DNA from: Rhizobiaceae bacterium
GTDB taxonomy: Bacteria > Pseudomonadota > Alphaproteobacteria > Rhizobiales > Rhizobiaceae
Length of the DNA stretch: 64,000 bases
NCBI GenBank assembly: GCA_045047085.1
Contig: JASFYT010000034.1
Location: 2,098-66,097, forward strand
Direction of reading: 5' to 3'
Shown piece by piece: positions 2,020-18,601 of this stretch (position 1 is its first letter; every line of letters starts with the position of its first letter). The notes beneath the pieces are model-generated. The model worked only from the letters and a program-made list of their open reading frames with translations. It did no database searches and had not been told where the DNA came from. The position numbers and the translations under genes were made by a program.

Positions 2020-2643
2020 TCATCGGCCAGTTACGGCGTTAAGAACTTCACCAATGCGTTGCTGTGCAATTTTCAACGGCTCTGTTTCTCCCGCCATGGA
2101 AATTCGGCCCGTGGCCCCCATCATCTGAACATCTATGAGCGTAATTTCAGGGGCGGCTTTTTCTGCTTCGTTTGCCGCCATTGCAGCAAACAAAGCCGGA
2201 GCCATTTCATAGAGGAGAAGTGACTGGCCGGGCAGGATCATCGAAGCCTCACGCATGCGGTTATAAATAACGGCATGCTGATCTGAAATATTTTCGATGA
2301 TATCGGTAAACAATATTTCGGGCTTCAACTGATCTTCCGCCTTGCAATTGATCCCCTCAAGGATGGCCTCCCCTGCCCCCATGACCACTTCACGCGCGCT
2401 CGAATGTAATTCAAGCAAGCCGAAATGGCGCTCCGTAAACAAAATCCCCGGCTCAAGATCCGGCGCTGCTTTCAACGCCAGATCAGCAATTCGGTGAATT
2501 GCAAGCGCAGGTGCAACTTCGATAATGAGGCTGTGATCACCAACAAATGGCGGATACCCCCGGGCACGGGTCGGAGTCGCCATATACGCCGCAAACTGCG
2601 GTTGTAGATCCTCAATGGGCAGATAAACACGTAACTCTGTCAT
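2020..2643 (-). CDS. BMC shell protein, tandem-domain (BMC-T-like), paralog 1
   Basis: 207 aa with two internal BMC-like repeats (EVAPALAIHRIADLALKAAPD and EMAPALFAAMAANEAEKAAPE). It is a paralog of 3711..4331 and lies in an operon with BMC-H and BMC-P genes. Confidence 0.8.
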   Translation of the reverse strand: MTELRVYLPIEDLQPQFAAYMATPTRARGYPPFVGDHSLIIEVAPALAIHRIADLALKAAPDLEPGILFTERHFGLLELHSSAREVVMGAGEAILEGINCKAEDQLKPEILFTDIIENISDQHAVIYNRMREASMILPGQSLLLYEMAPALFAAMAANEAEKAAPEITLIDVQMMGATGRISMAGETEPLKIAQQRIGEVLNAVTGR

Positions 2644-2695
2644 CTATTTTTCAATCATTCTCACATAACCGCCACGCGGCCAGCACAACAGCGTT

Positions 2696-2986
2696 TTATT
2701 TGCCAGTACCAGTATTAAAGTTAAAATGGCTGGCCAGATCAGCGTGAGGACGTGGGATCACATGAACTGATATTAACTCGCCAATTTGACCCGCTGTGTC
2801 AGCGCCCGCTTCGGTAGCAGCCTTAACAGCACCCACATCTCCCTGAATAACCACAGATACCAGACCTGCGCCCACTTCTTCACGAGACACAATTTTCACA
2901 TTGGCAGCTTTCACCATTGCATCTGCCGCAGCCAGCGCAGCCACAAAACCTTTGGTCTCAATCATTCCTATTGCTTCATTTGACAT
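2696..2986 (-). CDS. BMC shell protein, single-domain hexamer type (BMC-H, PduA/EutM-like)
   Basis: [30 protein letters not shown]... is the canonical Pfam00936-type N-terminus. The ATG at 2986 is preceded by AAGGAG. The TTG-extended ORF reaching 3004 is not needed. Confidence 0.9.
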
Positions 2987-3009
2987 TTGTTTTCTCCTTT
3001 TCAAAAAAA

Positions 3010-3252
3010 TTAATTATCATCGTCGATCGATCCGATGATCAAGGCGTCAATCGGTGCCTTGACGTTATCAAAATAGGCCGCCGCTACAGACCCTTGCACA
3101 ACCAGCACATCTTCTCCCTCACCGCAGCCAAGCGGATCGAGGGCGATAATTTCTGTGCCGTTTTCCAGCTCCACATTCAGCAATGCCCCTTGTGGCAGAG
3201 TCTCTATACGCTTTGTTGACCAAAGCCTGCCGGTAACACGTCCTCTCACCAT
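3010..3252 (-). CDS. BMC vertex protein (BMC-P, EutN/CcmL family)
   Basis: 80 aa, [29 protein letters not shown]...LVVQGSVAA...[11 protein letters not shown], the typical EutN/CcmL pattern. Confidence 0.85.
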
Positions 3253-3707
3253 TATCTCATCCTTTCAATTATTATTTTACGCAGCCTGAGGCGATCTCGC
3301 GCCAAGGGAGTAAACCGGACTGCCCGCCCAAGTCGCACAATTTTCGTCTCCTGCGGCAGTGCCTCAACTTGCCTCTCGGACAAAAATCCATTTTCAATCT
3401 GCACCACACCACCCTGCGACGCCGGTACAGGCATATCCGCCTTCAGCCCGGAAGTGCGGTCAGAAGTGGTCTTCAACCGAAAAACATGATCGCCCCTAGC
3501 GATCTTGTCTCTCATAGGCTTGTTCTGGCTGAGCTTCAAAATTTGCTGAACCAGCGATTGCAAATCATCGTCGTTGTTTATCGACACAAACTCCTCGTCT
3601 ACCGATAGTTTTGAAACAAGAGCGCGCACTTTGCGTTCTTCGGCAATGAGAGACAGTTCTTCCGCCAGTATTTCACGAATGATGGATCTGACCGCATCAG
3701 TTGTCAT
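3252..3707 (-). CDS. BMC-operon protein of unknown function with an N-terminal encapsulation-peptide-like amphipathic helix
   Basis: 151 aa, embedded between the BMC-T and BMC-P genes with stop/start overlap. Its N-terminus AVRSIIREILAEELSLI resembles the C-terminus of the adjacent aldehyde dehydrogenase. No catalytic family recognised. Confidence 0.6.
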   Translation of the reverse strand: MTTDAVRSIIREILAEELSLIAEERKVRALVSKLSVDEEFVSINNDDDLQSLVQQILKLSQNKPMRDKIARGDHVFRLKTTSDRTSGLKADMPVPASQGGVVQIENGFLSERQVEALPQETKIVRLGRAVRFTPLARDRLRLRKIIIERMR

Positions 3708-3710
3708 GGC

Positions 3711-4331
3711 TTAGGCGTCTCCATGACCATCGAAACCACCCAGTGCATATTCTGCCGCTTCTTGCGCAGCGCGAATTTCAGACTCACCGCCCGACAGATA
3801 GACGCGCCCGTTTGCACCAATCATACGATAGTCAACCACTTTGATATTGGCTGCCTTTTCCGCTTCATTTGCCGCAAGGATGGCATAAGATGCGGGTTGC
3901 ATTTCGAGCAGGTATAAGGACTCACCACCCAGCACCATCGATCCCAATTTATTCCGGTTGATCAAAAATGCATGTTGGTTATCTATACGTGTCACGATTT
4001 TCGAACCCACTATCTTGGGTTGCATTGCGTCATTGGACTCCGCGCCAAGCGCATCCAGAACCGCCTGCGCGGATTCCCGCACCGCTGATGTATCGCGGGA
4101 ATGGAATTCCAGATAACCAAATTGGCGCTCGACAACCAGAATACCGGCACGAACATCCGCATGCTTCAGCGCAATATTGGTCAGGTTTTCAATATCAAGA
4201 CCAGGAGCAATTTCGATGATTTGTGCTGCAACATTGGCGCGAGGCAAGGACCCCCTCATCCAACTGGCCATGTAAGACATGGTTTGCGGTTGTAACTGGT
4301 CGATGAATATGAATGATCGTAAATTTGCCAT
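3711..4331 (-). CDS. BMC shell protein, tandem-domain (BMC-T-like), paralog 2
   Basis: 206 aa with internal repeats EIAPGLDIENLTNIALKHADV and EMQPASYAILAANEAEKAANI. It shares the N-terminal DQLQPQ motif with 2020..2643. Confidence 0.8.
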   Translation of the reverse strand: MANLRSFIFIDQLQPQTMSYMASWMRGSLPRANVAAQIIEIAPGLDIENLTNIALKHADVRAGILVVERQFGYLEFHSRDTSAVRESAQAVLDALGAESNDAMQPKIVGSKIVTRIDNQHAFLINRNKLGSMVLGGESLYLLEMQPASYAILAANEAEKAANIKVVDYRMIGANGRVYLSGGESEIRAAQEAAEYALGGFDGHGDA

Positions 4332-4334
4332 GGG

Positions 4335-5927
4335 TCAGCCTTTCAACGCAGAGCGTAATTCTTCAGCGATGATGCGACGGATGGTTTCGCGCAATTTGTG
4401 GTCTTGCTGAGAAATAGGGCGAGCTGTAGGTTCGGGGGCCTTGAGGTTTGCACTTCTTCCTCCTGATTGTCCGGGCACACCATCAGCCGGAGCTTTTAGC
4501 AATTTTCCCCGGTGGGTCAAACTGGCCATCTGGCGCCCATCAAGGTTTCCCGCCACATCCTTGTTCCATGCAATCTTGGTCCAGTTCACCAGGTGCTGCG
4601 GACCAACATTTTCACCGACAGATGAACGGCCAAAATAACCGGTGCCTATTGTGAAAGTTGGAGCGAGATTGGTTGCAAAACCAGCAGCTCCCTGACTGCA
4701 TGGCGCGTTGACAATTACACGGTACACTTCAACACTGGCGGCGTAATCCATGATGATTTGATCATCGTTTGCATGAATGGCTGCAGAGTGCCCTGCCCCG
4801 GTATAGCGCAGTAAAGCGCGCGCTTGTTTCATCACTTGCGAATGGCTATTCGCCACATAATATCCCAGTACCGGACAAAGTTTTTCGCGCGAAAGCACTT
4901 CGCCTACCCCGATCTTGTCGATTGGCGTGATGAGAACTTTGGTTTTACGAGGCACTTTGAACCCGGCCTGTTCGGCAATCCACGACGCATCGCGCCCCAA
5001 AGCTTCCACATTAAATCCACGCTGGTGAAACAAATAATTGCGCAGCAACTCGACTTCGTTTGGTTTGCAGATATGACATCCGGCGCGATCCAGTTCGCGC
5101 ATCAATTGGGCCGAAATCTCTTTCAAAGTGATCAACACCGACTCGTTGGTACACAAAACCGAATTGTCAAATGACTTGCTATCGGAGATGAACTTCGCTG
5201 CCTGCTTCAGATCAGCACTCGTATCCACAAAAACCGGAGCATTGCCGGGGCCGACCCCAATCGCCGGGTTGGAGGAAGAATAGGCTGCCCGCACCATGGC
5301 GCTGCCGCCCGTGGCAAGAATAACATTTGTCTTGTCCGACTTCATGAATTCGTCGATCAGCAAAAGGTTGGGATGTTCAATGACCTGAATGACAGCTTCC
5401 GGCGCACCTGCTGCCTCAGCAGCTTTTATCAATGTATTGACCGCATCAACAGAGCATTCACGCGCTGCGGGATGAGGGCTGACTACAATTGCGTTACGGG
5501 TCATCAGGGCGCACAACACCTTGAAATAAATTGTAGCAATCGGATTGGTAGATGGTGCAAGCGCAAAAACCACACCTGCGGGTCTCGGTACTTCGATGAT
5601 GTTGGTTTCTGCATCAAATCTCGGGTTCACAAAATCCCGATCCCGGTAATGTTCAACCAGCGGTAATGCGGAAAGTTCGTTTTTCAGCGTCTTATGTTCG
5701 GCAACGCCAAATCCGGTTTCTTTGACCGCCCAGTCGCCATACTTTCCAGCATTTTCATGGGCAGCTTTTGCCACTGCATCTGCGATGGCGAGTGTTGATT
5801 CTCGATCATAACGTTGAAAGACCTGAGATGCCCATCTCGCACGTTCCAGCGTCATATCGGCGGCAGCCCGTAACGCTGCGTCTGTGGCACTTATATCGAC
5901 GAGTTTTGCAATCGACAGATCCATCAC
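4335..5927 (-). CDS. CoA-acylating aldehyde dehydrogenase (EutE/PduP-like) with a C-terminal extension ending in an encapsulation-peptide-like helix
   Basis: 530 aa with the SFDNSVLCTNES catalytic-Cys block and an ATGGSAMV NAD-binding region. A roughly 60-aa Pro/Gly-rich tail ends in KLRETIRRIIAEELRSALKG. Confidence 0.85.
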   Translation of the reverse strand: MMDLSIAKLVDISATDAALRAAADMTLERARWASQVFQRYDRESTLAIADAVAKAAHENAGKYGDWAVKETGFGVAEHKTLKNELSALPLVEHYRDRDFVNPRFDAETNIIEVPRPAGVVFALAPSTNPIATIYFKVLCALMTRNAIVVSPHPAARECSVDAVNTLIKAAEAAGAPEAVIQVIEHPNLLLIDEFMKSDKTNVILATGGSAMVRAAYSSSNPAIGVGPGNAPVFVDTSADLKQAAKFISDSKSFDNSVLCTNESVLITLKEISAQLMRELDRAGCHICKPNEVELLRNYLFHQRGFNVEALGRDASWIAEQAGFKVPRKTKVLITPIDKIGVGEVLSREKLCPVLGYYVANSHSQVMKQARALLRYTGAGHSAAIHANDDQIIMDYAASVEVYRVIVNAPCSQGAAGFATNLAPTFTIGTGYFGRSSVGENVGPQHLVNWTKIAWNKDVAGNLDGRQMASLTHRGKLLKAPADGVPGQSGGRSANLKAPEPTARPISQQDHKLRETIRRIIAEELRSALKG

Positions 5928-7201
5928 CGTACCTTCTTCCGGTTGGAACCCATAATTTCCTCGGACGCCAGACCGATTGCAATTTCCACACGGGTCAGCA
6001 AATCTTCACACAGGCTTTGTGTCATCAATATACCCGGTTTGAATTGCAAAACACTTGGATCAAGGGTTGAAAATATCGCCCATACACCATGCTCGTAAAG
6101 GTGCCTCATTACCGGCTTCGCGCCCTCAGGGTCATTGAATTCCAGCCCTAAAATAACACCATTTTGCCGAATGCCCGTGAAGAAATCCGGGTAGAGCGCC
6201 TGAATATCGTCGAGCCCCGCACGGATAAAGTCAGAAACATAACGCACCATCGTGGCAACTTCCGGCCTCTGAGTTATTTCAAGCACTTTCAGCGCGACAA
6301 TGCAGCCAAGTTCTGCTCCCCCTGTGGTGGACATGTGAGCAAAGCCATCCTGCTTCAACCACTGCCCTGCCCGCTCGTTAACAACACAACACGAAATTGG
6401 ATACATGCCGCCGGTAATGCCCTTACCGATCACCATGATATCTGGTGTAACGCCGTATTTGGTAATGCCCCAAAGTTCGCCTGTACGCATTAATCCGGTC
6501 TGCACTTCATCAGCTATATAGAGCGCATCAAACCGCTCGCACAGGCTTTTTACGGCAGGCAGATAGCCCTCATTTGGCATTGGAAAACCATAGGTGGCCG
6601 GGATCGTTTCCATGATGACAGCGGCAACATCCCTTCCTCTCAACGCATCTTCCATTGCATCAAGATCATTGAATGGCACTTGAATAAATTCCCCAAGCGT
6701 ATCTTCTGACAAAAACATTTCGGAAAATCGCTCATCGCCTGTTTTAACAGCCAGACCGGAGTGTCCGTGATAAGCTTTGATAATCGAAACAATTTTGCGT
6801 TTTTGGGTTGCGTGCCGCGCAGATTTTATTGCCAGCTCCACGGCCTCAGCACCACCTGCCCCATAAATGGTATATTGCAGACCATCGGGTGTGCAGTCAG
6901 CCAAGGCCTCAGCCAAGGCCGTTCGGGCCAAAGCTGGAAAATGATGATTGCCCATATCAAAACGTTTTGCACCGGCATTCAATACTTCGATCAGTTCTGC
7001 ATTGCGATGGCCCAGATTATAGGTGCCGCCGTTGAGATGCACATCAATCAGGCGCTTGCCATCTAAATCATAGAGGCAATATCCTTCACGGCGATCAATC
7101 ACCAGATCGACGCCAACATCCTGCCAGAACTGGGTTTTATCCGGGTTCCAGAAAGCTTTCGACTGCTCCAGGAATTCCAGTTTTTCTGCACTCACAAGCA
7201 A
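5924..7201 (-). CDS. class-III aminotransferase-fold PLP enzyme; probable amino-alcohol-phosphate phospho-lyase
   Basis: 425 aa with DEVQTGLMRTGELWG and DIMVIGKGITGG (PLP-Lys) blocks. A 4-nt ATGA overlap links it to the AldDH gene. Pairing with an APH-type kinase is the known kinase/phospho-lyase arrangement. The lyase assignment, as opposed to a transaminase, is inference. Confidence 0.75.
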   Translation of the reverse strand: MLVSAEKLEFLEQSKAFWNPDKTQFWQDVGVDLVIDRREGYCLYDLDGKRLIDVHLNGGTYNLGHRNAELIEVLNAGAKRFDMGNHHFPALARTALAEALADCTPDGLQYTIYGAGGAEAVELAIKSARHATQKRKIVSIIKAYHGHSGLAVKTGDERFSEMFLSEDTLGEFIQVPFNDLDAMEDALRGRDVAAVIMETIPATYGFPMPNEGYLPAVKSLCERFDALYIADEVQTGLMRTGELWGITKYGVTPDIMVIGKGITGGMYPISCCVVNERAGQWLKQDGFAHMSTTGGAELGCIVALKVLEITQRPEVATMVRYVSDFIRAGLDDIQALYPDFFTGIRQNGVILGLEFNDPEGAKPVMRHLYEHGVWAIFSTLDPSVLQFKPGILMTQSLCEDLLTRVEIAIGLASEEIMGSNRKKVR

Positions 7202-7395: not shown

Positions 7396-8409
7396 ATGTC
7401 AGAATTTGATGATTTGTCCCATGAGGAGCAATTAATTTGCTTGAAGCATCTCGCGGATGCGGCCCTTGCCCATTTTCACCTGCCCATGGGCGTCACTTCT
7501 TATCTAATCAACCTATCAGAAAATGCCACCTACAAGGTTGAAGATCCTCGCACCTCCAAGTGCTGGGCCATGCGAGTCCATCGGGAAGGCTATCACACAA
7601 AAGACGTGATCTACTCCGAGTTGGCTTGGGCAAAGGCCCTGCGAGAAAGTGGTGCAGCGATTACACCAATCGCGCTGCCGGGCCTCGATGGAGATATCAT
7701 TCAGACAGTATCTCATGAAAGCCTGCCGAATTCGCGGCATGTGGTACTTTTTGAATGGGAAACTGGCGTTGAACCTTCTGAGGAAGACGATGACCTGCGG
7801 GCACCTTTCGAGGTACTTGGTGAAACCACAGCACACATGCATAAACACGTAAAATCGTGGAAATTACCAGAAAATTTTAGACGTCCAGTCTGGGATTTTG
7901 AAACTTCACTGGGATCGACCCCTCTTTGGGGGCGATGGCGCGATGGCATGGGCCTCGATAAAAATCGCATGCAGCTGTTCCATGAAACGGTGAACTTGAT
8001 AGAGCAACGGCTCGAAAAATTCGGAAAAGCACAAGAACGGTTCGGCTTGATTCATTGTGATATGCGTCTAGCCAATCTGCTGATTGACGGTGATGTAACC
8101 AAAGTAATTGATTTCGATGATTGTGGCTTTAGCTGGCTGATGTACGATTGTGCTACCACAGTATCCTTTTTCGAGAACAAACCTGAAGTCCCGGACTTAC
8201 TAAAATCATGGGTGAAAGGTTACCGCAAAGTCATCGACCTTCCAATGGAGGATGAAGCGGAAATTCCCACTTTTGTCATGCTGCGCAGATTGTTGCTTGT
8301 GGCCTGGATCGGCTCCCATTCAGAGACAGATCTTGCCCAGTCGATGGGGGTGACCTACAGCAAGGAAACAGATGCCCTTTGTCGCAATTATATTGCTGAT
8401 TTTAGTTGA
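7396..8409 (+). CDS. aminoglycoside-phosphotransferase-fold kinase (probable amino-alcohol kinase)
   Basis: 337 aa with the Brenner motif HCDMRLANLL and the metal-binding IDFDDCG. It is divergently transcribed from the BMC operon. Confidence 0.8.
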   Translation: MSEFDDLSHEEQLICLKHLADAALAHFHLPMGVTSYLINLSENATYKVEDPRTSKCWAMRVHREGYHTKDVIYSELAWAKALRESGAAITPIALPGLDGDIIQTVSHESLPNSRHVVLFEWETGVEPSEEDDDLRAPFEVLGETTAHMHKHVKSWKLPENFRRPVWDFETSLGSTPLWGRWRDGMGLDKNRMQLFHETVNLIEQRLEKFGKAQERFGLIHCDMRLANLLIDGDVTKVIDFDDCGFSWLMYDCATTVSFFENKPEVPDLLKSWVKGYRKVIDLPMEDEAEIPTFVMLRRLLLVAWIGSHSETDLAQSMGVTYSKETDALCRNYIADFS

Positions 8410-8557
8410 ATATAAATTTTGAGATGGTGCTGCCGGCGAAATTTTCATGACAACATCACAATATCAGCACATGCCTCCTCTTGATCCAGTCCACTTGAGT
8501 GTGCAAGGATTACAAAATGATTAGAAAGTTAGCTTCGTAATCGGTGTTGGGGAACGC

Positions 8558-9628
8558 ATGAATATTGCCACCCACAGTCTTGAACGTCCAACTGGCAGCG
8601 ATAACGCGACCAGTGCTAATCCTGCAGTGCTTGCTGCTGCGGCCACTGGTATGGTCGAGTTCATTGAGAAAATGGGGGGTGATGTTGATCGCATATTTGG
8701 TCATGCAGGCATCTCGCCGGATATGGCTGGGGAACCCACTTTAAAGTTGAGCCTTTCTTCGTTTTGCCTGTTATTTGAAGAGGCTTCACGCCTGTCACAA
8801 CATGATAATTTCGGCCTATGGTTTGGTAATCAGTTTTCTCCTCAAAAACTTGGATTGTGGGGATATGCAACAATTTCTTCGTCGACCGTCGGGATGGCAT
8901 TGGAAAATTTGGTTGGCCTGTTTCGCTATCAACAGGAATCGTCGGTGATGAGCCTTTCCGAAGACAAGAATGGATTAATGCGGCTGGAATACCAAATTCA
9001 AGCTGTCGATATTGTCGAGCGCCGACAGGATGCCGAGCTCTCTCTTGGCATGTTTTTCAATGTCATTCGTGAGGGATGCGGCGCGAGCTGGGTGCCTGAA
9101 GAAGTACATTTTGAGCATGCAAAACCGGAAAACTGGAAAGATCACGAAACAGCGTTTTCGGCGCCGGTGTATTTTTCACAGCCGAAAAATGCTCTGTTGT
9201 TCAAGCCGGATATCATGAAACTCACCATGCCCGGGCGCGATCTTTCGCTCATGACAATTATGCAAACCTGCCTTAAAACTGTTGGCGATGAAAATGCTCA
9301 ACCAGTGTCGCTGATTGGTAGAATCCAAAATACCATTCGCACACAATTGCCGGATGGATACCCCTCTTTGGAGCAGGTTGCGCTAACCCTGAAGCTATCG
9401 CCCTCTGTCATCCAGCGCGAATTAGCTTTTGAAGGGCTGACCTATAAGGGACTGATCGAGACCACGCGGAATGCTCTGGCACTGATGTATATCCGGCAGC
9501 GTCATTTGCCTTTTTCCGAGATCGCATTTCTTCTGGGCTATTCAGAACTCAGCGCCTTCTCAAGGGCAGTGCGTCGCTGGACCGGATTTTCGCCACGAAA
9601 ATACCGGGCGCAATTGGCCAATTCCTAG
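8558..9628 (+). CDS. AraC-family transcriptional regulator
   Basis: 356 aa with the C-terminal double HTH ...FSEIAFLLGYSELSAFSRAVRRWTGFSPRKYR and a long N-terminal ligand-domain-like region. Confidence 0.85.
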   Translation: MNIATHSLERPTGSDNATSANPAVLAAAATGMVEFIEKMGGDVDRIFGHAGISPDMAGEPTLKLSLSSFCLLFEEASRLSQHDNFGLWFGNQFSPQKLGLWGYATISSSTVGMALENLVGLFRYQQESSVMSLSEDKNGLMRLEYQIQAVDIVERRQDAELSLGMFFNVIREGCGASWVPEEVHFEHAKPENWKDHETAFSAPVYFSQPKNALLFKPDIMKLTMPGRDLSLMTIMQTCLKTVGDENAQPVSLIGRIQNTIRTQLPDGYPSLEQVALTLKLSPSVIQRELAFEGLTYKGLIETTRNALALMYIRQRHLPFSEIAFLLGYSELSAFSRAVRRWTGFSPRKYRAQLANS

Positions 9629-9810: not shown

Positions 9811-10575
9811 CTACGCCAACGCTTCCAGAGACTCGGGCAAAATCTGTCCGCCATCAACTATGATTGTCTGACCGGTGATATAGTTGGCTTCCTTGGATGC
9901 GAGAAACAAGGCGGCGTTGCCGATATCTTCAACTGAACCAATTTTTTTCAACGGTATGGATGCAGCCATCGTTGCAATGTAATCATCCCCCAACCCCTCA
10001 AGGCCTTCGGTGAAAATATTGCCCGGCAAAACGGCATTCATTGTAATCGCGTCCTTGGCCAATTCAATACAGGCGGTACGCATAAATCCGAGTTGGCCTG
10101 ATTTGCTCGCCCCATAATGGGACCAACCGGGAAAGCCCGTTTCAGGTCCGGTAATGGAAGAAGTCAGAATCACCCGTCCCTGATCAGAATTCTTTAAATG
10201 AGGAAGGCAGGCTTTAACCGATAAAAATGTGCCTTTCAAATTAGTACTCATCACAAGATCCCATTCGTCCGGATCCATGTCCTCGATATTGGTTTGCGGG
10301 TAAATGCCAGCATTGGCACACAAAATATCAAGCCCGCCATTGCGATCAACAGCCGCCTGAGCCATGGCCTGTGATTGCTCCCAATTAGAAATATCTGCCG
10401 AAAACCCCGAGGCGCCATTACCAATTTCCTTAGCACAGGCCTCTGCTTCTGAAAGGGTTCGCGATACCACCAGAATTTTTGCGCCTTGTGCAGCAAATAC
10501 TTTTGCTATCCCTTTGCCTATGCCTTTGCTCGCGCCGGTAACAATAACCGATCGGCCTGCAATTGATGTCAACAT
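9811..10575 (-). CDS. SDR-family oxidoreductase (FabG-like)
   Basis: 254 aa with VTGASKGIGKG (TGxxxGxG) and YGASKSG (YxxxK). Confidence 0.85.
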   Translation of the reverse strand: MLTSIAGRSVIVTGASKGIGKGIAKVFAAQGAKILVVSRTLSEAEACAKEIGNGASGFSADISNWEQSQAMAQAAVDRNGGLDILCANAGIYPQTNIEDMDPDEWDLVMSTNLKGTFLSVKACLPHLKNSDQGRVILTSSITGPETGFPGWSHYGASKSGQLGFMRTACIELAKDAITMNAVLPGNIFTEGLEGLGDDYIATMAASIPLKKIGSVEDIGNAALFLASKEANYITGQTIIVDGGQILPESLEALA

Positions 10576-10609
10576 GTGATTTCCTTCTTCATTTATTCAT
10601 ATGTGAGAT

Positions 10610-11434
10610 TTATAGCCGCTCCATCCGTCGCCTCCGGGCACCAATAACCAACCAAACAAGATAGGCAATCAACAGGAATATCGCAGCACTAAATAAAGTA
10701 AGCGCACCCAGGGTCGGCACCATTGGCGTGTAGCCTGACACCATTTTTGCATAGAGCCATTCAGGGATGGTTGAATCTGCACCGGTGGTGAACAGTGACA
10801 AGGGAAAATTCCCCCAAGACAACAGAAACGCGAAAATTGCCCCGGAAATAATTCCGGGCGATAAAATTGGCAAGGTCACTTCTGTAAGAACCTGCCACCT
10901 GGTTGCACCCAGATCGAACGCCGCTTCTTCAAGTGCCGGATCAAAACTATAAACCTGTATCGACATGATCAATATGACAATGGGGGTAATCCAGACCAGA
11001 TGAGCAAAGACGGCAGTGTGCCAACTTGTTGTAATGCCAAGAGCGGAAAACCACAGCAGCATCGCCAGTCCGAGAACCGCTTGAGGGAAGAATATCGGTA
11101 ATAAAATCAGCTTTTGATAAAGCTTGCGGCCCTTCCAGTCATAGCGCGCAAACGCCAATGCTCCCATAAACGCCAGTACGACGGAAATGACCGTTACCAG
11201 TGCCGCAACGGATAATGAGGTCCACAATAATTCCCGCACCGACAATGAGGAAAAGGCTTTTTGGTACCATTTATCAGTCCAACTCTGAATCGGGAATTTA
11301 AAATATCGTTGTTTGGAGAACGATGCCAGCAGCACCGCAACCATTGGCACATATAAGAAGAAGATAACGATCGATGTCCAAAGGATAATTGCCCGGCGCG
11401 TCATTTTTTGAGAAGTCGAACGCATATCTATCAT
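10610..11434 (-). CDS. ABC transporter permease (PotC-like)
   Basis: Multi-pass membrane protein with the EAA loop EEAAFDLGATRWQVLTEVTLP. The ATG at 11434 overlaps the upstream stop (ATGA). The longer track ORF is an upstream read-through. Confidence 0.8.
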   Translation of the reverse strand: MIDMRSTSQKMTRRAIILWTSIVIFFLYVPMVAVLLASFSKQRYFKFPIQSWTDKWYQKAFSSLSVRELLWTSLSVAALVTVISVVLAFMGALAFARYDWKGRKLYQKLILLPIFFPQAVLGLAMLLWFSALGITTSWHTAVFAHLVWITPIVILIMSIQVYSFDPALEEAAFDLGATRWQVLTEVTLPILSPGIISGAIFAFLLSWGNFPLSLFTTGADSTIPEWLYAKMVSGYTPMVPTLGALTLFSAAIFLLIAYLVWLVIGARRRRMERL

Positions 11435-12306
11435 CGCCTCCCGATAACCTTGTCGAGATCGACACGCCTGAACAGAATGAAAACAATGACGCCCGAAAGA
11501 GCTATCAGCAACACTGACAACGCCGAACCCTTGGGCCAATTCTGGGCAAAGGTGAAAGCTGACTCAATATCATCTGCAATCATCACAATGGCTTGCCCGC
11601 CAAGGATTTTCGCCTCAGCCAAAGACCCCAGAACAAGTACAAATGTTAAAATGCCACCGATCATAAACCCTGGCATAGACAAGGGTAACTCAATCTCACG
11701 AAATATCTGCCAACGCGTGGCACCCAAATCGGAGGCTGCTTCCTTCAACGTGTCCGGAACCATTGATATTCCGATGACCAATGGGAACAACGTAAAAGGC
11801 AGATAGACATATACCAGCCCCAACACAATGGCTGGCACAGTGAAGAGCAAACCTGAGGCTGTTGTGCCAAAAAGGGTTTGCAGCGAACCATCCAGAATTC
11901 CGTTTTTTAACAATATGAGAACCCAGCCAAACAGACGGATATTTTCAGAAATGAGTATAGGCACCGCAATGAGCGCGGTTACCAGATTGGCCCATTTGTT
12001 AAACAATTTGGCCATGCCATAAGCGATTGGGTAGCAAATGATAAACAATAATATTACGGTCGAGAGCGCGAGCACAAGTGACCAGAAAAACGAAATGTAA
12101 TAGCTGCTGGTGACAATCGAAACATAATTTTCAACCGTGGGCGTTTGCATCAATGAAAACGATTTCGACGGCATGAAGCTGTAGCCGACCACCATGAGAA
12201 GCGGACCGGCAAAGCCAATTAGCAAAAACAGCGACGCTGGCAAAGCGGTAAGAACGCCTGCCTGCCTGAACCATTTCGATTTACTACCTTGTGAACTGTC
12301 CGCCAT
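11431..12306 (-). CDS. ABC transporter permease (PotB-like)
   Basis: 291 aa, hydrophobic, with the EAA loop KEAASDLGATRWQIFREIELP. Confidence 0.85.
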   Translation of the reverse strand: MADSSQGSKSKWFRQAGVLTALPASLFLLIGFAGPLLMVVGYSFMPSKSFSLMQTPTVENYVSIVTSSYYISFFWSLVLALSTVILLFIICYPIAYGMAKLFNKWANLVTALIAVPILISENIRLFGWVLILLKNGILDGSLQTLFGTTASGLLFTVPAIVLGLVYVYLPFTLFPLVIGISMVPDTLKEAASDLGATRWQIFREIELPLSMPGFMIGGILTFVLVLGSLAEAKILGGQAIVMIADDIESAFTFAQNWPKGSALSVLLIALSGVIVFILFRRVDLDKVIGRR

Positions 12307-12310
12307 TATT

Positions 12311-13387
12311 TTACTCGCTCACCAAAATACAATCTTCCGGTTGCCAACCGATTTCAACCGTATCACCAACCTGTCCCTCATAAGGTTCGTCCTGAAGGCG
12401 CTCCACCAGCCAATGCTCTTCAAATTGTTCAATTCTAATTTGGTATTGCACCCGCGACCCCAATGCGTATTCGTTAAAGGCCACACCTTTGATTATGTTA
12501 TCCAGCCTCGCTGCAGATTTTCCGATTTTCATCATTTCCGGACGTATTATCAAAAACCCGTCGTTGAAATCTGAAAGATCGTCCACAACTTTGAATACAT
12601 CGCCAGAACCAATAACCCGGACCTGGTCTTTTCCAGCTTTTTCAACCTGGAGCGTATTCACCTCCCCCATAAACTGGGCAACGAATTTATTTTTCGGATG
12701 GTTGTATATTTCAAAAGGCGTTCCGACCTGAACAATGCCGCCATCACGCATAATGGCAATACGGTCAGACATCACCATCGCCTCTTCCAAAGAATGGGTG
12801 ATGTAGACGAACGTCTTGCCGGTCTCGCGATGAATATCTTTGAGTTCCTTTTCCAGCACCTTGCGCAGCCTGAAATCCAATGCCGACAAAGGTTCGTCAA
12901 AGAACAGGATTTCCGGATCAAAAGCCAGTGCCCGTGCAAGCGCGATGCGTTGACGTTCACCGCCCGAACACTGGGTAACACTGCGGTCATAATAGTCTAG
13001 CGGGAGGCGCAATTGCTCCATTAATTGACGGACCCGCGCTCGCCTGCTGGTTTTGTCCTGGCCGGCAATTTTCATTGAAAATTCAATATTCTCGCCAACG
13101 GATTTATGTGGAAATAACGCTAGGGATTGAAAAACCATGCAAGTCGGGCGCTTATTGGCTGGCAGGCCATTCATCACCTTGCTTTTCAGCCGCATCTCGC
13201 CCTCGGAAGGCTGATCCATGCCGACCAACATGCGTATCATTGTCGTTTTACCGGACCCAGAAGGGCCTACGAGCGTAAAGAATTCGCCTTCTAAAATCTT
13301 TAAATTAACATCATCAACTGCTACAAAATCACCAAAGCGCTTGGTGATCCCGCTGAGCTCGAGAAACGGCTCGCTTACTTCATTCAT
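12311..13387 (-). CDS. ABC transporter ATP-binding protein (PotA-like)
   Basis: Walker A GPSGSGKTT, signature CSGGERQR, Walker B ILFFDEP. The ATG at 13387 is preceded by GGAGG. Confidence 0.9.
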   Translation of the reverse strand: MNEVSEPFLELSGITKRFGDFVAVDDVNLKILEGEFFTLVGPSGSGKTTMIRMLVGMDQPSEGEMRLKSKVMNGLPANKRPTCMVFQSLALFPHKSVGENIEFSMKIAGQDKTSRRARVRQLMEQLRLPLDYYDRSVTQCSGGERQRIALARALAFDPEILFFDEPLSALDFRLRKVLEKELKDIHRETGKTFVYITHSLEEAMVMSDRIAIMRDGGIVQVGTPFEIYNHPKNKFVAQFMGEVNTLQVEKAGKDQVRVIGSGDVFKVVDDLSDFNDGFLIIRPEMMKIGKSAARLDNIIKGVAFNEYALGSRVQYQIRIEQFEEHWLVERLQDEPYEGQVGDTVEIGWQPEDCILVSE

Positions 13388-13530
13388 GAGGCCTCCGCGC
13401 CCGTCATACTTAGAGCACAATCTGAAAAGTGATAACCGGGTTTCAGATTGCGCTTTAAAATAAAATGCCCTAGGTCAGGAACTCTAATGAGCCCTGACCC
13501 AAGTAAACTTAAAATTGAAATCCAAAAAAC

Positions 13531-14688
13531 TTAGGTTTTTCGCTCACGTTTTGCGGCAGAATACAAATCGTACATTTCCGCGTAATCTGGGTTGATATCG
13601 TAATCAACAGAATTGCCCATTTCCTGCTCAATGGAATCCCATTGCACCGCATCCAATTCTTCTTTCGAGAAGGTGCTCAAAACATCCTGAGAACCCATTT
13701 GAGTTACAGGATTGTATGTTCCTTCGGCAAATGCAACTTTCTTGGAAACGTTAGGGCGCTGAACATACTCAAGAAAATCCTCAGCCAGACCAGATGGGTC
13801 AGGGTTGTTAACGACAGACGTCAACTCAATCCACACGATGCCGCCCTTGCCATCCATTGGGCCAGAATTTGGCGTAATGCCACGAATGTTTTTTGCACCA
13901 TCAAGACGTGCTGGCGATGCCGTATAGGTGCCACCAGTGAAATACGCATCGATTTCGCCATTGATCAAGGCAAGGTTCATTGCAACAAGATCGTCGGTCA
14001 AATTTTTTGCACCATTGAAAATTTGTTTGGCAACTTCACCAAATTTGGTGATTTCCGCTTTGGTATGTTTTTTGAACGGATGAATGTCGGCCGCGATGCA
14101 CATATGATAAATATTCCAGTTATCATACGTCAAAATGCCGTAACGCCCCTTCATTGCAGGATCAAGGAATAACTTGAAGCCCTGATCTTCCGCCAATTTT
14201 CTACTAATTTTATCCGTATTGACCACAAAAGAAAATGGGCCGAAACGCTGTGTCATGCCCAGCAAATCTTTACCGGAAGCATCCATCGCCCATTTATAGG
14301 GTGGCTTAAATGCTGGCATCATCTTGTCGTAATATGGCTCAAAACGTTCACGGGAAATAGGCTTGATCAAACCTTCGGGGAACATCTGCTCGCGTGCCCA
14401 TGGATTGTTTAGATTGATGATATCCCAAACCTTGGTTTCACCAGCGCGCAATCTGTTCACCGCATCCGGATCAGAGGTCAGCCCCTCTGCGCGAACCTTG
14501 GCTCCGAACTCTTTGCGGAACGGGTCAAGCACTTCATCGGAATTATACCCTTCCCAGCAATAAATGTTTAATTCCTTGTCACGCGCAGCATTAGCGATGT
14601 TCGGAAATGCACCGATTGACGCGGCAGCAGCGGCATATACGCCTGTCTGCTGCAAAAAATTACGTCGTGAAAGTGGGTATTTCAGCAT
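13531..14688 (-). CDS. periplasmic solute-binding protein (PotD/PotF-like) with a twin-arginine signal
   Basis: MLKYPLSRRNFLQQTGVYAAAAASIGAFPNIANA signal, followed by a polyamine-binding-like fold (LNIYCWEGY...). The ATG at 14688 has an RBS. Confidence 0.8.
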   Translation of the reverse strand: MLKYPLSRRNFLQQTGVYAAAAASIGAFPNIANAARDKELNIYCWEGYNSDEVLDPFRKEFGAKVRAEGLTSDPDAVNRLRAGETKVWDIINLNNPWAREQMFPEGLIKPISRERFEPYYDKMMPAFKPPYKWAMDASGKDLLGMTQRFGPFSFVVNTDKISRKLAEDQGFKLFLDPAMKGRYGILTYDNWNIYHMCIAADIHPFKKHTKAEITKFGEVAKQIFNGAKNLTDDLVAMNLALINGEIDAYFTGGTYTASPARLDGAKNIRGITPNSGPMDGKGGIVWIELTSVVNNPDPSGLAEDFLEYVQRPNVSKKVAFAEGTYNPVTQMGSQDVLSTFSKEELDAVQWDSIEQEMGNSVDYDINPDYAEMYDLYSAAKRERKT

Positions 14689-14940
14689 TATCTCTCTCCC
14701 TGTGGGCAAATCATCCCTGGAGGTGATTTCAAACAATCAACACTCCATTTGGCTTGCTATCCTGATTCAATTTGTATTTTACATCCGTGCCAACAAAAAA
14801 ATAAAGTATCAGCAAGACGCAATATCAATCTCCATCCAAGATAAGATTAATATATTCACCGCCGTTTCGTCTTGACATCAGACGCACTGGATTTGACACT
14901 TCCATACCGCTTCGGGCCAATTGGATATTCAAATAAATAT

Positions 14941-15636
14941 TTAGTGCAAATCCATCATTTCTTTTAACTCGCCGCTGCTGACCACATGACAGTAAATCAT
15001 ATTCATAATCTCCAGTTCCCTTTCATGCAGCTCATCGCTTCCGGCGGCACAACAATCTTCAACCACCACCACGTTAAAACTCTCATCAGCCAAACTTCTC
15101 ACCGTTGATGAGATGCATTGGTCTGTGAAAATTCCGCAACATATGACGTTTTTGATACCCAAATTGTGCAGGATCAATCTTAGATTGGTTCCTGTCAGCG
15201 CAGAATCTGTTGTTTTGGTTACGATAATTTCATCCCCCACCGGAGAAAGATCAGGCACCAATTGCGATGGTTTCAGGTTTTTCGGCAACAACAAATTATT
15301 CCATCCGGGCATTTTCTGACTGAGCGAACGGTCTCGCCCATCATCTGTGTGGCATGCAATGCGGGCAAATATGCATTCAACTCTGGCGTCGCGAAACAGC
15401 TTCAACAGCTCGGCAGTCCTGGGGATCACCTGCCTGTTCATACGATCATGAAATGGCGTCCATGCATCATATTCCACACGCGCATCATTTGACAGACCGC
15501 TTGTATCCGGACGCTCCAGATAGGTGTTTTGCACGTCAATGACCAAGAGTGCGGTTTCCGCAGGCTTGAGATCAAGATCATCTGGCTCGGGCGCATTTCG
15601 ATAGTAAATCGAGCGATAGGCTGTTTTCCAATTCAT
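14941..15636 (-). CDS. isochorismatase-family (cysteine) hydrolase
   Basis: 231 aa with LLVIDVQNTY and CGIFTDQCISSTVRS (catalytic Cys context). It lies 18 nt downstream of the dehydratase small subunit. Confidence 0.75.
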   Translation of the reverse strand: MNWKTAYRSIYYRNAPEPDDLDLKPAETALLVIDVQNTYLERPDTSGLSNDARVEYDAWTPFHDRMNRQVIPRTAELLKLFRDARVECIFARIACHTDDGRDRSLSQKMPGWNNLLLPKNLKPSQLVPDLSPVGDEIIVTKTTDSALTGTNLRLILHNLGIKNVICCGIFTDQCISSTVRSLADESFNVVVVEDCCAAGSDELHERELEIMNMIYCHVVSSGELKEMMDLH

Positions 15637-15654: not shown

Positions 15655-16083
15655 TTAGTATCTGGTGGTGAACAAACCGCGTTGTTCATAAACCTCGGCG
15701 GCCTCTTCAATGAACTCAGCCATCCGTTCTGCCTGATAGGTAGTCCTTAATTTCTCAGATATCTCCAACAATACAGATTTGTCTTTTGCCCGGCCGGGTC
15801 TCAAAAACTCATAAATTTCCATCAAATAATCTTGCGGAATATTCGTAAGCTCAGAGGCACGATTAAAATTATCTCCAAGTTTTGGTCGATTGCAATCACG
15901 TGCTATATCCGCCTGCATCTCCAAAGCTTGACTGGTGATCCGGAAATCATCCATGACTACATCCCCACGCTCAACAGCGGCAAGATCAAGTTCACCGAGC
16001 TGTTTTCCTCGCTGGCCCAGAACAAGATCGGGGCGATTTTCCGCCAATGGGTAATCCTTGGCACCAAGCCTATTATTGTCCAA
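15655..16083 (-). CDS. pduE: B12-dependent diol/glycerol dehydratase small (gamma) subunit
   Basis: 142 aa. DYPLAENRPDLV...DDFRITSQALEMQADIA...LGDNFNRASELTNIPQDYLMEIYEFLRPGR matches the PduE/DhaB3 pattern. Confidence 0.85.
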   Translation of the reverse strand: MDNNRLGAKDYPLAENRPDLVLGQRGKQLGELDLAAVERGDVVMDDFRITSQALEMQADIARDCNRPKLGDNFNRASELTNIPQDYLMEIYEFLRPGRAKDKSVLLEISEKLRTTYQAERMAEFIEEAAEVYEQRGLFTTRY

Positions 16084-18379: not shown

Positions 18380-18601
18380 CCAAATTTTATCGCCAGAATG
18401 TCGTCAACATTTTATAATCGTCAAGGAATTTTTTATTTCGAGCCATTCTCGATGATCTTTTGGCCACAAAACAAATGCTTGATTTTTCGGTAAATACACT
18501 TGTAAAAGCGGAGATATAACGCGTTTGTAATTTTTCCTGTGCAAAAAATATCCTCAAAATATTAGGCAGAAATACCTCAAAAAAATAAATGGAAACCAAC
18601 T

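What the first reader, a model, noticed from the sequence alone, without database searches (positions are those of the whole stretch)
3636..4400. The same amphipathic peptide sits at the AldDH C-terminus and at the N-terminus of the 151-aa protein (candidate encapsulation peptides)
Seen in the sequence: the AldDH ends in ...KLRETIRRIIAEELRSALKG after a Pro/Gly-rich linker (GVPGQSGGRSANLKAPEPTARP). The 151-aa ORF begins MTTDAVRSIIREILAEELSLIAEE. Both contain the core I-(I/R)-R-x-I-(I/L)-AEEL.

Established knowledge: BMC cargo is targeted by short amphipathic helices of about 18 aa at a protein terminus, separated from the body by a flexible linker. The classical PduD peptide has a similar ...LLRQIIEDVL... 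pattern.

Inference: these two proteins are the shell-targeted hub. The kinase and the phospho-lyase show no comparable terminal helix, so they may be recruited indirectly or act outside the shell.
Basis: partly seen in the sequence, partly recalled or inferred. Interest (0 to 1): 0.7.

Follow-up and report, generated by a model that had tools for sequence, protein, structure and literature searches.

The report
Matching targeting peptides in RMM microcompartment
Two proteins of an aminoalcohol-degrading bacterial microcompartment carry near-matching terminal helices that look like standard cargo-targeting peptides. One is expected on the aldehyde dehydrogenase; the other sits on a small uncharacterised protein that appears to be a distant cousin of the assembly protein PduM.

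Summary
The aldehyde dehydrogenase (AldDH) ends in KLRETIRRIIAEELRSALKG. The 151-aa ORF starts MTTDAVRSIIREILAEEL. The shared motif occurs only at these two sites in the six-frame translation of the 64-kb window.

Both peptides are conserved in 49 related genome loci and in a Rhodococcus RMM1 locus. A scoring matrix built from one peptide family finds the other at about 15 bits. Only 2 to 5 of 525,677 background positions score that high.

Both are predicted helices next to poorly conserved or disordered linkers. The small-protein matrix also scores the Salmonella PduP, PduB, PduE and PduD N-terminal peptides at their own positions. Three of those are validated signal sequences; PduE's did not target GFP. 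The kinase, phospho-lyase and short-chain dehydrogenase have no such peptide.

The locus is an RMM/AAUM microcompartment. A C-terminal encapsulation peptide on this AldDH class is already known.

The less expected result concerns the 151-aa protein. It belongs to a large unannotated family (779 clusters), always sits just upstream of the pentamer gene, and shares a 40-residue C-terminal module with PduM. PduM is an assembly protein whose own N-terminal signal sequence was shown in 2025.

"Shell-targeted hub" is only partly supported, because Pdu signal sequences go to the cargo core. No function was tested.

The parts
4356..4397 (-). AldDH C-terminal encapsulation-peptide core, residues 511-524 (KLRETIRRIIAEEL). 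The predicted helix covers residues 507-529 (4341-4409).
   Evidence: Sequence. Conserved in 47 AldDH tails. AF2 helix with block-mean pLDDT 88-97. Cross-matrix score 14.9 bits.
4410..4562 (-). AldDH linker, residues about 456-506. Predicted disordered. It contains a conserved GPLPxAPSDGVPG motif (4470-4508) followed by a variable stretch of 13-36 aa.
   Evidence: Family-model matches end near residue 455. Conservation profile. AF2 block-mean pLDDT 44-66.
4563..5927 (-). AldDH catalytic body, of the acylating type and closest to TIGR02518.
   Evidence: Pfam PF00171; NCBIfam TIGR02518 at 405.8 bits and PRK13805 at 434 bits, both below their cut-offs.
3654..3695 (-). N-terminal encapsulation-peptide core of the 151-aa protein, residues 5-18 (AVRSIIREILAEEL). 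The AF2 helix covers residues 3-31 (3615-3701).
   Evidence: R11, E12, L14, E16 and E17 are invariant in 39 homologs. Cross-matrix score 13.1 bits for the window copy.
3600..3641 (-). Poorly conserved, length-variable linker of the 151-aa protein, residues about 23-36.
   Evidence: Low identity and frequent gaps in alignments A1 and A3.
3474..3599 (-). Central small domain of the 151-aa protein, residues 37-78 (strand-helix-helix-strand). No detectable relatives.
   Evidence: AF2 model. No Foldseek or PDB sequence match.
3255..3413 (-). C-terminal module of the 151-aa protein, residues 99-151, with the invariant FTPLARDRLR. Related to the C-terminal segment of PduM.
   Evidence: hhalign of A3 against PduM: E 1.5e-5, score 37.1, against a shuffled null of 12.6 +/- 2.2. 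PF15953 weak hits in 36 of 142 members.
3010..3252 (-). BMC-P pentamer gene. It overlaps the stop codon of the 151-aa ORF by 1 nt, the same adjacency as pduM-pduN.
   Evidence: Pfam PF03319. Junction sequence. Salmonella pdu locus.
3711..4331 (-). Tandem-domain BMC-T shell protein (CcmP-like, double-stacking type) lying between the two peptide-bearing genes.
   Evidence: Pfam PF00936; NCBIfam CcmP at 217 bits.
2020..3004 (-). Second CcmP-like BMC-T (2020-2643) and the BMC-H hexamer (2696-3004).
5924..7201 (-). Class-III aminotransferase-fold protein, the presumed aminopropanol-phosphate phospho-lyase. It has no encapsulation peptide and its stop overlaps the AldDH start.
   Evidence: Pfam PF00202 covers residues 33-408 of 425. 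Best peptide-matrix score 5.9 bits. Junction sequence.
7396..8409 (+). APH-family kinase, transcribed divergently. No encapsulation peptide.
   Evidence: Pfam PF01636. Best peptide-matrix score 8.6 bits.

Best explanation
**Setting.** The locus is an RMM/AAUM-type metabolosome, which degrades aminoacetone and 1-amino-2-propanol. It has one BMC-H, one BMC-P, two CcmP-like BMC-T proteins, an acylating AldDH, a class-III aminotransferase-fold phospho-lyase, an APH kinase and an SDR.

**The two peptides.** Both terminal helices are encapsulation or signal peptides of one sequence class, with core R-x-x-I-R-x-h-h-A-E-E-L.

**AldDH peptide.** This is the known C-terminal encapsulation peptide of this AldDH lineage. 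It is tethered by a disordered linker of about 50 residues.

**The 151-aa protein.** It is not an enzyme. It is the RMM counterpart of PduM. It has an N-terminal signal peptide, a variable linker, a small central domain, a disordered stretch, and a C-terminal module homologous to the C-terminus of PduM. Its gene is translationally coupled to the pentamer gene, as pduM is adjacent to pduN.

**Proposed mechanism (inferred, not shown).**
- The two helices bring the AldDH and the small protein into the same condensing cargo core, or onto the same shell surface.
- The body of the small protein then helps couple the core to the shell and set compartment shape, as PduM does.
- The phospho-lyase has no peptide but must make the aldehyde inside. 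It would enter by piggy-backing on the AldDH or on the small protein.
- The kinase and SDR probably act outside.
For: **Locus type**
- Pfam and NCBIfam assignments.
- Gene order matches msmeg_0271 to msmeg_0277 and the catalogue description of RMM1/RMM2.

**Conservation and significance of the peptides**
- Gene order and both peptides are conserved in 49 loci and in Rhodococcus RMM1.
- The Rhodococcus small protein is homologous to the window family: hhalign probability 98.7%, E 2.6e-16.
- Cross-matrix significance.
- The motif occurs only twice in the window.

**Encapsulation-peptide architecture**
- Predicted helices.
- Conserved helix plus variable linker.
- The small-protein matrix scores the PduP, PduB, PduE and PduD N-terminal peptides at 12.7-15.6 bits, against a background 99.99th percentile of 10.4.
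- No other protein class in the loci carries such a peptide.

**Literature**
- Type I AldDHs carry a C-terminal encapsulation peptide (PMC8217296; PMC4594438).
- PduM residues 1-23 are a signal sequence, and PduM helps couple core and shell (PMC12108088; PMC9132943).

**PduM link**
- PF15953 is the most recurrent Pfam hit: 36 of 142 members, best E 3.8e-5.
- hhalign E 1.5e-5.
- 0 of 150 column shuffles reach the real score.
- The C-module HMM hits all 16 PduM sequences at residues 121-159.
- pduM is directly followed by pduN.
Against: - No experiment or complex model was possible, so targeting is inferred from sequence class only.
- The Eisenberg hydrophobic moment of either peptide is not above its own shuffles.
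- The PduM relationship covers only about 40 residues.
- The window protein itself has no PF15953 hit.
- Salmonella PduM alone scores 9 bits (E 0.35) against a 5,876-ORF background.
- PduM's own N-terminal peptide scores poorly with the RMM matrix, at 3.5 bits.
- The two peptides do not co-vary within loci, so there is no direct sign that they share a partner.
[quoted passage not shown] Sequence resemblance alone can therefore mislead.
Confidence: 0.7

Rival explanations
1. The two helices are primarily a hetero-association pair. The acidic small-protein helix would pair with the basic AldDH helix. The small protein would then act as an adaptor or nucleator that bridges the AldDH to the peptide-less phospho-lyase, rather than each helix being an independent targeting tag.
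For: - The two families keep fixed, different residues at the same helix positions. Position 8 is E in the small protein and R in the AldDH. Positions 4-5 are S/L against E/E.
- Counted directly from the two peptide sequences, not by a tool, net charge is about -1 for the small-protein core and +3 for the AldDH helix.
- The lyase lacks a peptide.
- Pdu signal sequences go to the cargo core, and their binding partner there is unknown (PMC12108088).
Against: - No within-locus co-variation between the two helices.
- The small-protein matrix matches the Pdu N-terminal peptides, which are not known to work as pairs.
- No interaction data exist.
Confidence: 0.15
2. Only the AldDH helix is an encapsulation peptide. 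The N-terminal helix of the 151-aa protein would be an oligomerisation or structural helix of that protein, resembling an encapsulation peptide by convergence, as the non-functional PduE N-terminus does.
For: - AF2 predicts one long helix (residues 3-31), longer than the usual 15-20 aa.
- The amphipathicity statistic is weak.
Against: - Only residues about 5-19 of the helix are conserved. The rest varies in sequence and length, like a linker.
- The motif is shared with the in-locus AldDH tail far beyond chance.
- PduM, which shares the C-terminal module, has an experimentally shown N-terminal signal sequence.
Confidence: 0.1
3. The resemblance is a chance match between two charged helical segments, or a composition artefact.
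For: BLASTP finds no alignment. Short HMMER profiles give only 2-8 bits.
Against: - Only 2 to 5 of 525,677 background positions reach the cross-matrix scores.
- The motif occurs only at these two sites in 127,996 six-frame residues.
- It is conserved from Alphaproteobacteria to Rhodococcus.
Confidence: 0.01

Closest known systems
C-terminal encapsulation peptides of type I (TIGR02518/IPR013357-like) microcompartment aldehyde dehydrogenases, as in EUT2 and GRM1 (Aussignargues 2015, PMC4594438; Sutter 2021, PMC8217296)
   Same: A conserved helix of about 18 residues at the extreme C-terminus follows a poorly conserved linker rich in Pro, Gly and Ser. The linker here is about 50 aa, and the published range is 4-91. 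The enzyme is an acylating AldDH encoded in a shell-gene operon.
   Different: The RMM version has its own motif (LREEIRRIIAEELRxALK) and, in Proteobacteria, an extra conserved GPLPxAPSDGVPG element in the linker. I could not confirm that an RMM-specific peptide HMM exists in the catalogue, because the held copy of its supplementary file is cut off.
PduM of the propanediol-utilisation microcompartment (Pfam PF15953). Its residues 1-23 are a signal sequence (Johnson et al. 2025, PMC12108088), and it helps couple core and shell (Yang et al. 2022, PMC9132943).
   Same: - Small non-enzymatic protein: 151 aa here, 163 aa for PduM.
- N-terminal helix with the hh..hh..hh pattern.
- Homologous C-terminal module of about 40 residues (h-x-T-x-L-A-x-D/E ... 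I-x-h).
- Gene immediately upstream of the pentamer gene.
   Different: - The central 80 or so residues show no detectable similarity.
- The window protein does not reach any PF15953 score.
- PduM's own N-terminal peptide scores low with the RMM matrix.
- The system is RMM/AAUM, not Pdu. It has no PduB-type trimer whose N-terminus could link shell to core.
N-terminal signal sequences of PduP, PduD and PduB
   Same: Same alternating pattern of hydrophobic and hydrophilic pairs. They score 12.7-15.6 bits with the RMM small-protein matrix, at their known positions.
   Different: They sit on other proteins, in another compartment type. The acidic AEEL end and the paired arginines are specific to RMM.
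CcmN of the beta-carboxysome, a non-enzymatic assembly protein with a C-terminal encapsulation peptide
   Same: An organising protein rather than an enzyme carries the peptide, and it links the cargo core to the shell.
   Different: No sequence relationship. The peptide is on the opposite terminus and the compartment is anabolic.

Membership tests
BMC encapsulation peptide (signal sequence) | Located at the extreme N- or C-terminus of the protein | tested here: met
   The small-protein core is residues 5-18 of 151. The AldDH core is residues 511-524 of 530. The best AldDH match lies within 12 residues of the C-terminus in 48 of 49 AldDH-class ORFs.
BMC encapsulation peptide (signal sequence) | Predicted alpha-helix of about 15-20 residues | tested here: met
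   AF2 gives AldDH residues 507-529 as helix at block-mean pLDDT 88-97, and small-protein residues 3-31 as helix at pLDDT 76-84. Only residues about 5-19 of the latter are conserved.
BMC encapsulation peptide (signal sequence) | Amphipathic, with alternating hydrophobic and hydrophilic pairs | tested here: inconclusive
   The pattern hh..hh..hhh..h is the same as in PduD, PduE, PduP, PduB and PduM. The Eisenberg moment at 100 degrees is not above shuffles (p = 0.26 and 0.11). The Pdu N-terminal peptides give comparable values (0.33-0.56).
BMC encapsulation peptide (signal sequence) | Separated from the protein body by a poorly conserved flexible linker | tested here: met
   The AldDH has a variable stretch of 13-36 aa, predicted disordered. 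The small protein has a gap-rich, low-identity stretch at residues about 23-36.
BMC encapsulation peptide (signal sequence) | Absent from homologs not associated with compartments | tested here: inconclusive
   AldDH family models end near residue 455. The second AldDH in the window (18602-20077) has no extension. The small protein has no homologs outside compartment loci, so the test cannot be applied to it.
BMC encapsulation peptide (signal sequence) | Necessary and/or sufficient for targeting cargo to the compartment | not testable with these tools
   This needs GFP-fusion and deletion experiments.
RMM/AAUM microcompartment locus | AldDH, class-III aminotransferase-fold enzyme, APH kinase and SDR, together with one BMC-H, one BMC-P and two BMC-T of the double-stacking type | tested here: met
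   for the domains. Gene order matches msmeg_0271 to msmeg_0277 and Rhodococcus pRHL2.
PduM family (Pfam PF15953) | Match to the Pfam model at its gathering threshold | tested here: not met
   The window protein has no hit at E <= 10. In the wider family, 36 of 142 members give weak hits, best E 3.8e-5.
PduM family (Pfam PF15953) | Homology of the C-terminal segment | tested here: met
   hhalign gives E 1.5e-5, probability 79.8% and score 37.1. The column-shuffled null is 12.6 +/- 2.2 with a maximum of 19.1. The C-module HMM hits all 16 PduM sequences at residues 121-159.
PduM family (Pfam PF15953) | Full-length similarity, including the central region | tested here: not met
   hhalign aligns only the last 39-43 columns.
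PduM family (Pfam PF15953) | Gene directly upstream of the pentamer (BMC-P) gene in a shell operon | tested here: met
   Window: 1-nt overlap with the BMC-P gene. All 49 loci show the same order. In Salmonella, pduM is at 10001-10492 and pduN at 10496-10771.
Type I microcompartment AldDH (TIGR02518-like) | Sequence membership in the acetylating acetaldehyde dehydrogenase equivalog | tested here: not met
   TIGR02518 scores 405.8 bits against a cut-off of 620. The enzyme is a relative, not an equivalog. It is closer to this model than to the EutE/PduP-type model PRK15398, which scores 234.7 bits.

The most novel reading that the evidence does not exclude
The 151-aa protein would define a widespread family of metabolosome assembly factors with two parts: a signal peptide and a PduM-type C-terminal module. 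PduM would be just the Pdu branch of that family.

In RMM compartments there is no PduB-type trimer with a core-binding N-terminus. This protein would therefore be the main core-to-shell coupler. Its acidic helix would pair with the basic AldDH helix to nucleate the core and bring in the peptide-less phospho-lyase.

The same C-terminal module may also be the TPxARE element at the N-termini of EutQ and EutT.
Probability: 0.25. Interest if true: 0.65.

Novelty: new member of a known kind. Interest (0 to 1): 0.45.

Why it matters
How RMM/AAUM compartments load their cargo, and how they join core to shell, has not been described in any paper I could read.

Two results narrow the question:
- Only two proteins in the locus carry a targeting-type helix.
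- The enzyme that makes the aldehyde carries none.

The candidate assembly factor is a single small gene, at the MSMEG_0274 position in the genetically tractable Mycobacterium smegmatis.

The link to PduM also matters. The 2025 paper states that PduM has no known homologs outside Pdu compartments. If the C-terminal module is shared, PduM-type assembly proteins are more general than thought. The module then becomes a target for structural and binding studies, and for engineering cargo loading into minimal RMM-type shells.

Tried and rejected
**Standard similarity searches on the two peptides**
- BLASTP of the two termini found no alignment.
- Short HMMER profiles gave only 2-8 bits. I replaced them with an ungapped scoring-matrix test.

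**Annotation and structure of the 151-aa protein**
- Pfam and NCBIfam: no family.
- PDB sequence search with the family profile: only noise, E >= 0.2.
- Foldseek of the AF2 model against PDB: nothing at E <= 0.001. The model is multi-domain with flexible linkers (pTM 0.28).
- tblastn against plasmids: no match. Searching with the neighbouring BMC-T instead found the Rhodococcus locus.

**Amphipathicity and co-variation**
- The hydrophobic moment against shuffles did not discriminate, even for the Pdu N-terminal peptides.
- Within-locus co-variation of the two peptides: none.

**Literature access**
- The Mallette and Kimber RMM papers are not held.
- The catalogue's supplementary file of peptide HMMs is cut off before any RMM entry.

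**Widening the PduM profile**
- The last large protein search returned only enterobacterial PduM, so it added no diversity.

**Other checks**
- The EutQ and EutT N-termini match the C-module HMM only weakly, at 2.9 and 6.8 bits. This is a lead, not a finding.
- I considered whether the nearby diol dehydratase is cargo. Its large and medium subunits are fused, and neither it nor the small subunit has a terminal extension. That agrees with Axen 2014, who concluded it is not encapsulated.
Full report
**1. What is in the window**

On the minus strand, a tightly packed operon reads, from upstream to downstream:
- class-III aminotransferase-fold protein (5924-7201)
- aldehyde dehydrogenase, AldDH (4335-5927)
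- tandem-domain BMC-T (3711-4331)
- a 151-aa ORF (3252-3707)
- BMC-P pentamer (3010-3252)
- BMC-H hexamer (2696-3004)
- a second BMC-T (2020-2643)

An APH-family kinase (7396-8409) and an AraC regulator are transcribed divergently, and an SDR lies at 9811-10575. Gene junctions are 1- to 4-nt overlaps or 3-nt gaps.

This inventory of enzymes and shell proteins is that of the RMM/AAUM microcompartment as the catalogue describes it: one BMC-H, one BMC-P and two different double-stacking BMC-T (PMC8217296 supplement). The gene order equals msmeg_0271 to msmeg_0277. That places the 151-aa ORF at the position of msmeg_0274. This assignment rests on position only, because I could not obtain that sequence.

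**2. The observation**

Both quoted peptides are present as described. The true shared core is I-R-x-I-(I/L)-A-E-E-L. A degenerate form of the motif occurs exactly twice in the six-frame translation of all 64 kb, at these two sites.

I fetched 49 genome loci that encode a relative of the 151-aa protein. Most are from Alphaproteobacteria, with some from Gammaproteobacteria.
- Every locus long enough to show it keeps the order lyase, AldDH, BMC-T, small protein, BMC-P, BMC-H, BMC-T.
- All keep both peptides. The small-protein form is x-[IVL]-R-x-x-[IV]-R-[EDQ]-[IVL]-L-x-E-E-[LIV]. The AldDH form is L-R-[ED]-[EQ]-[IL]-R-x-[IL]-I-A-E-E-L-R-x-x-L-K.

Standard tools are blind to the match, so I built 14-column scoring matrices.
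- The matrix from small-protein N-termini scores AldDH C-termini at a median of 14.9 bits. Only 2 of 525,677 background positions in 2,353 ORFs from the same loci reach that.
- The best-scoring site in the AldDH is within 12 residues of the C-terminus in 48 of 49 AldDH-class ORFs.
- The reverse test gives 14.7 bits, reached by 5 of 525,677.

The two coding segments are only 21/42 identical at the DNA level, so this is not a recent DNA duplication.

The peptides are two fixed variants of one motif rather than "the same peptide". Mean identity is 6.1 of 14. Family-specific residues sit at positions 5, 8 and 10, and there is no within-locus co-variation.

**3. Are they encapsulation peptides?**

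*AldDH tail*
- The conserved catalytic body ends at ...WTRIAW.
- It is followed by a conserved GPLPxAPSDGVPG element, then 13-36 variable residues, then the conserved helix.
- AF2 run on the last 99 residues gives a helix at residues 507-529 with block-mean pLDDT 88-97. Everything before it is low-confidence coil.

*Small protein*
- AF2 with a 39-sequence alignment gives a helix at residues 3-31.
- Only residues about 5-19 are conserved across 142 diverse family members. Residues 23-36 vary in sequence and length.

*Comparison with real Pdu peptides*
- I took the Pdu proteins from a real Salmonella locus.
- The small-protein matrix scores PduP at 15.6, PduB at 14.1, PduE at 13.2 and PduD at 12.7 bits, each at its known peptide position. 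The background 99.99th percentile is 10.4 bits.
- PduP, PduB and PduD are validated signal sequences. The PduE N-terminus is not: in the 2025 study it failed to target GFP.
- The hydrophobic pattern hh..hh..hhh..h is the same as in PduD, PduE, PduP, PduB and PduM.

*Weak point*
- The Eisenberg moment does not exceed shuffles for either peptide. It is equally undiscriminating for the Pdu N-terminal peptides.

*Literature*
- AldDH encapsulation peptides can sit at either terminus according to compartment subtype (PMC4594438).
- Type I AldDHs carry them C-terminally (PMC8217296).
- The window AldDH is closest to the TIGR02518 model.

The AldDH half of the finding is therefore an instance of a known feature.

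**4. Other proteins**

Across the 50 loci, the best combined matrix score is 8.6 bits for the kinase, 5.9 for the phospho-lyase and 7.4 for the SDR. No other protein class in the loci carries such a peptide.

According to the reviews I could read, the phospho-lyase step belongs to the 1-amino-2-propanol pathway of this compartment (PMC6787980). That it generates the aldehyde is my recollection of Mallette and Kimber 2018, which I could not access. If so, it must enter the compartment without a peptide of its own.

**5. What the 151-aa protein is**

- It has no Pfam or NCBIfam family.
- It has no relative in the PDB by sequence or by fold.
- The family is nevertheless large. There are 779 clusters at 50% identity with E <= 1e-3, and nearly all are 135-170 aa and match end to end.
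- It extends to Actinobacteria. In the RMM1 locus on Rhodococcus jostii RHA1 plasmid pRHL2, a 145-aa hypothetical protein lies between BMC-T and BMC-P and begins MTSAPALGLRALVRELISEII. It aligns to the family over its whole length (probability 98.7%, E 2.6e-16). The neighbouring AldDH ends ...AVREELRRLIVEELRGLIGQNHG.

The invariant C-terminal FTPLARDRLR reminded me of PduM, so I tested that.
- PF15953 (PduM) is by far the most recurrent weak Pfam hit: 7 of 39 close members, then 36 of 142 diverse members, best E 3.8e-5. The next family is hit by 9 members.
- Profile-profile comparison with 16 real PduM sequences aligns the last 39-43 columns. With the shallow family profile E is 0.041. With the diverse profile E is 1.5e-5 and probability 79.8%.
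- The real score of 37.1 compares with 12.6 +/- 2.2 (maximum 19.1) for 150 column-shuffled PduM alignments.
- An HMM of the C-terminal module hits all 16 PduM sequences at residues 121-159 at 9-19 bits. Salmonella PduM alone is not significant in a 5,876-ORF background.
- pduM is directly followed by the pentamer gene pduN, just as the 151-aa ORF overlaps the BMC-P start.

[quoted passage not shown] Its loss partly separates core from shell (PMC9132943). Its residues 1-23 were shown in 2025 to be a signal sequence that targets GFP to the cargo core. That paper describes this as the first signal sequence found on a structural protein, and states that PduM has no known homologs outside Pdu compartments (PMC12108088).

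My reading is that the 151-aa protein is the RMM counterpart of PduM and a distant relative of it. The shared features are the N-terminal signal helix, the C-terminal module and the gene position. The central region is unrelated. It fails the Pfam membership test, so I do not file it as a PduM family member.

**6. Mechanism**

*Shown by sequence analysis*
- There are two conserved terminal helices of one class.
- There are none on the other enzymes.
- The small protein shares a module with PduM.

*Inferred*
- Both helices deliver their proteins to the same place.
- The body of the small protein helps couple core and shell.
- The lyase piggy-backs on another protein.

In Pdu the same kind of peptide goes to the core, not the shell.

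A rival worth testing is direct pairing of the two helices, one mildly acidic and one basic. The fixed charge differences at matching positions hint at it. The lack of co-variation does not support it.

**7. Novelty and limits**

The AldDH peptide is a known feature. I did not find the small-protein peptide, or its PduM relationship, described in any paper I could read. The catalogue's file of peptide HMMs is truncated before any RMM entry. Prior description therefore cannot be excluded. Nothing here tests function.

Noticed in passing
window 15655-18379 (minus strand), with 14941-15636 and 18602-20077: A B12-type diol/glycerol dehydratase lies about 13 kb from the shell genes. Its large and medium subunits are fused (768 aa), and there is a 142-aa small subunit. 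Neither has a terminal extension, so neither carries an encapsulation peptide. Next to them are an isochorismatase-family gene and a second AldDH (491 aa) that also lacks an extension. This matches the "RMM2/PDU2" layout of Axen 2014. At least seven related loci carry the same fused dehydratase.
   Followed up: partly
window 4470-4508 (AldDH residues 474-486): A GPLPxAPSDGVPG motif inside the otherwise variable AldDH linker is conserved in all proteobacterial loci. It is absent from the Rhodococcus AldDH. It could be a second interaction site. No explanation was found.
   Followed up: no
L050 (Rhodococcus jostii RHA1 pRHL2) 8001-9597 and 11894-13490: The block BMC-T, small protein, BMC-P, BMC-H is tandemly duplicated, with identical protein accessions in both copies. 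The aminotransferase gene lies between the copies.
   Followed up: no
L052 (E. coli K-12 eut operon): eutT 17503-18306 and eutQ 18303-19004: The N-termini of EutT (...SRLTPSARELLESRHLRI) and EutQ (...SIITPEAREVADLLGFTI) are the two best Eut matches to the HMM of the small protein's C-terminal module. The scores are weak, at 6.8 and 2.9 bits. The module may recur in other compartment types.
   Followed up: partly
window 3654-3695 against 4356-4397, and the same peptides in L001-L049: The two peptide families keep different fixed residues at matching helix positions. Position 5 is L/M/I against E/Q, position 8 is E against R, and position 10 is L against I. As a result one helix is mildly acidic and the other basic. 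They show no within-locus co-variation.
   Followed up: yes
window 10610-14736 (minus strand): Read by eye from the translations only, four ORFs next to the SDR look like an ABC importer of the polyamine type: a binding protein, an ATPase and two permeases. It could take up the amino-alcohol substrate. Several close loci have the same neighbours.
   Followed up: no
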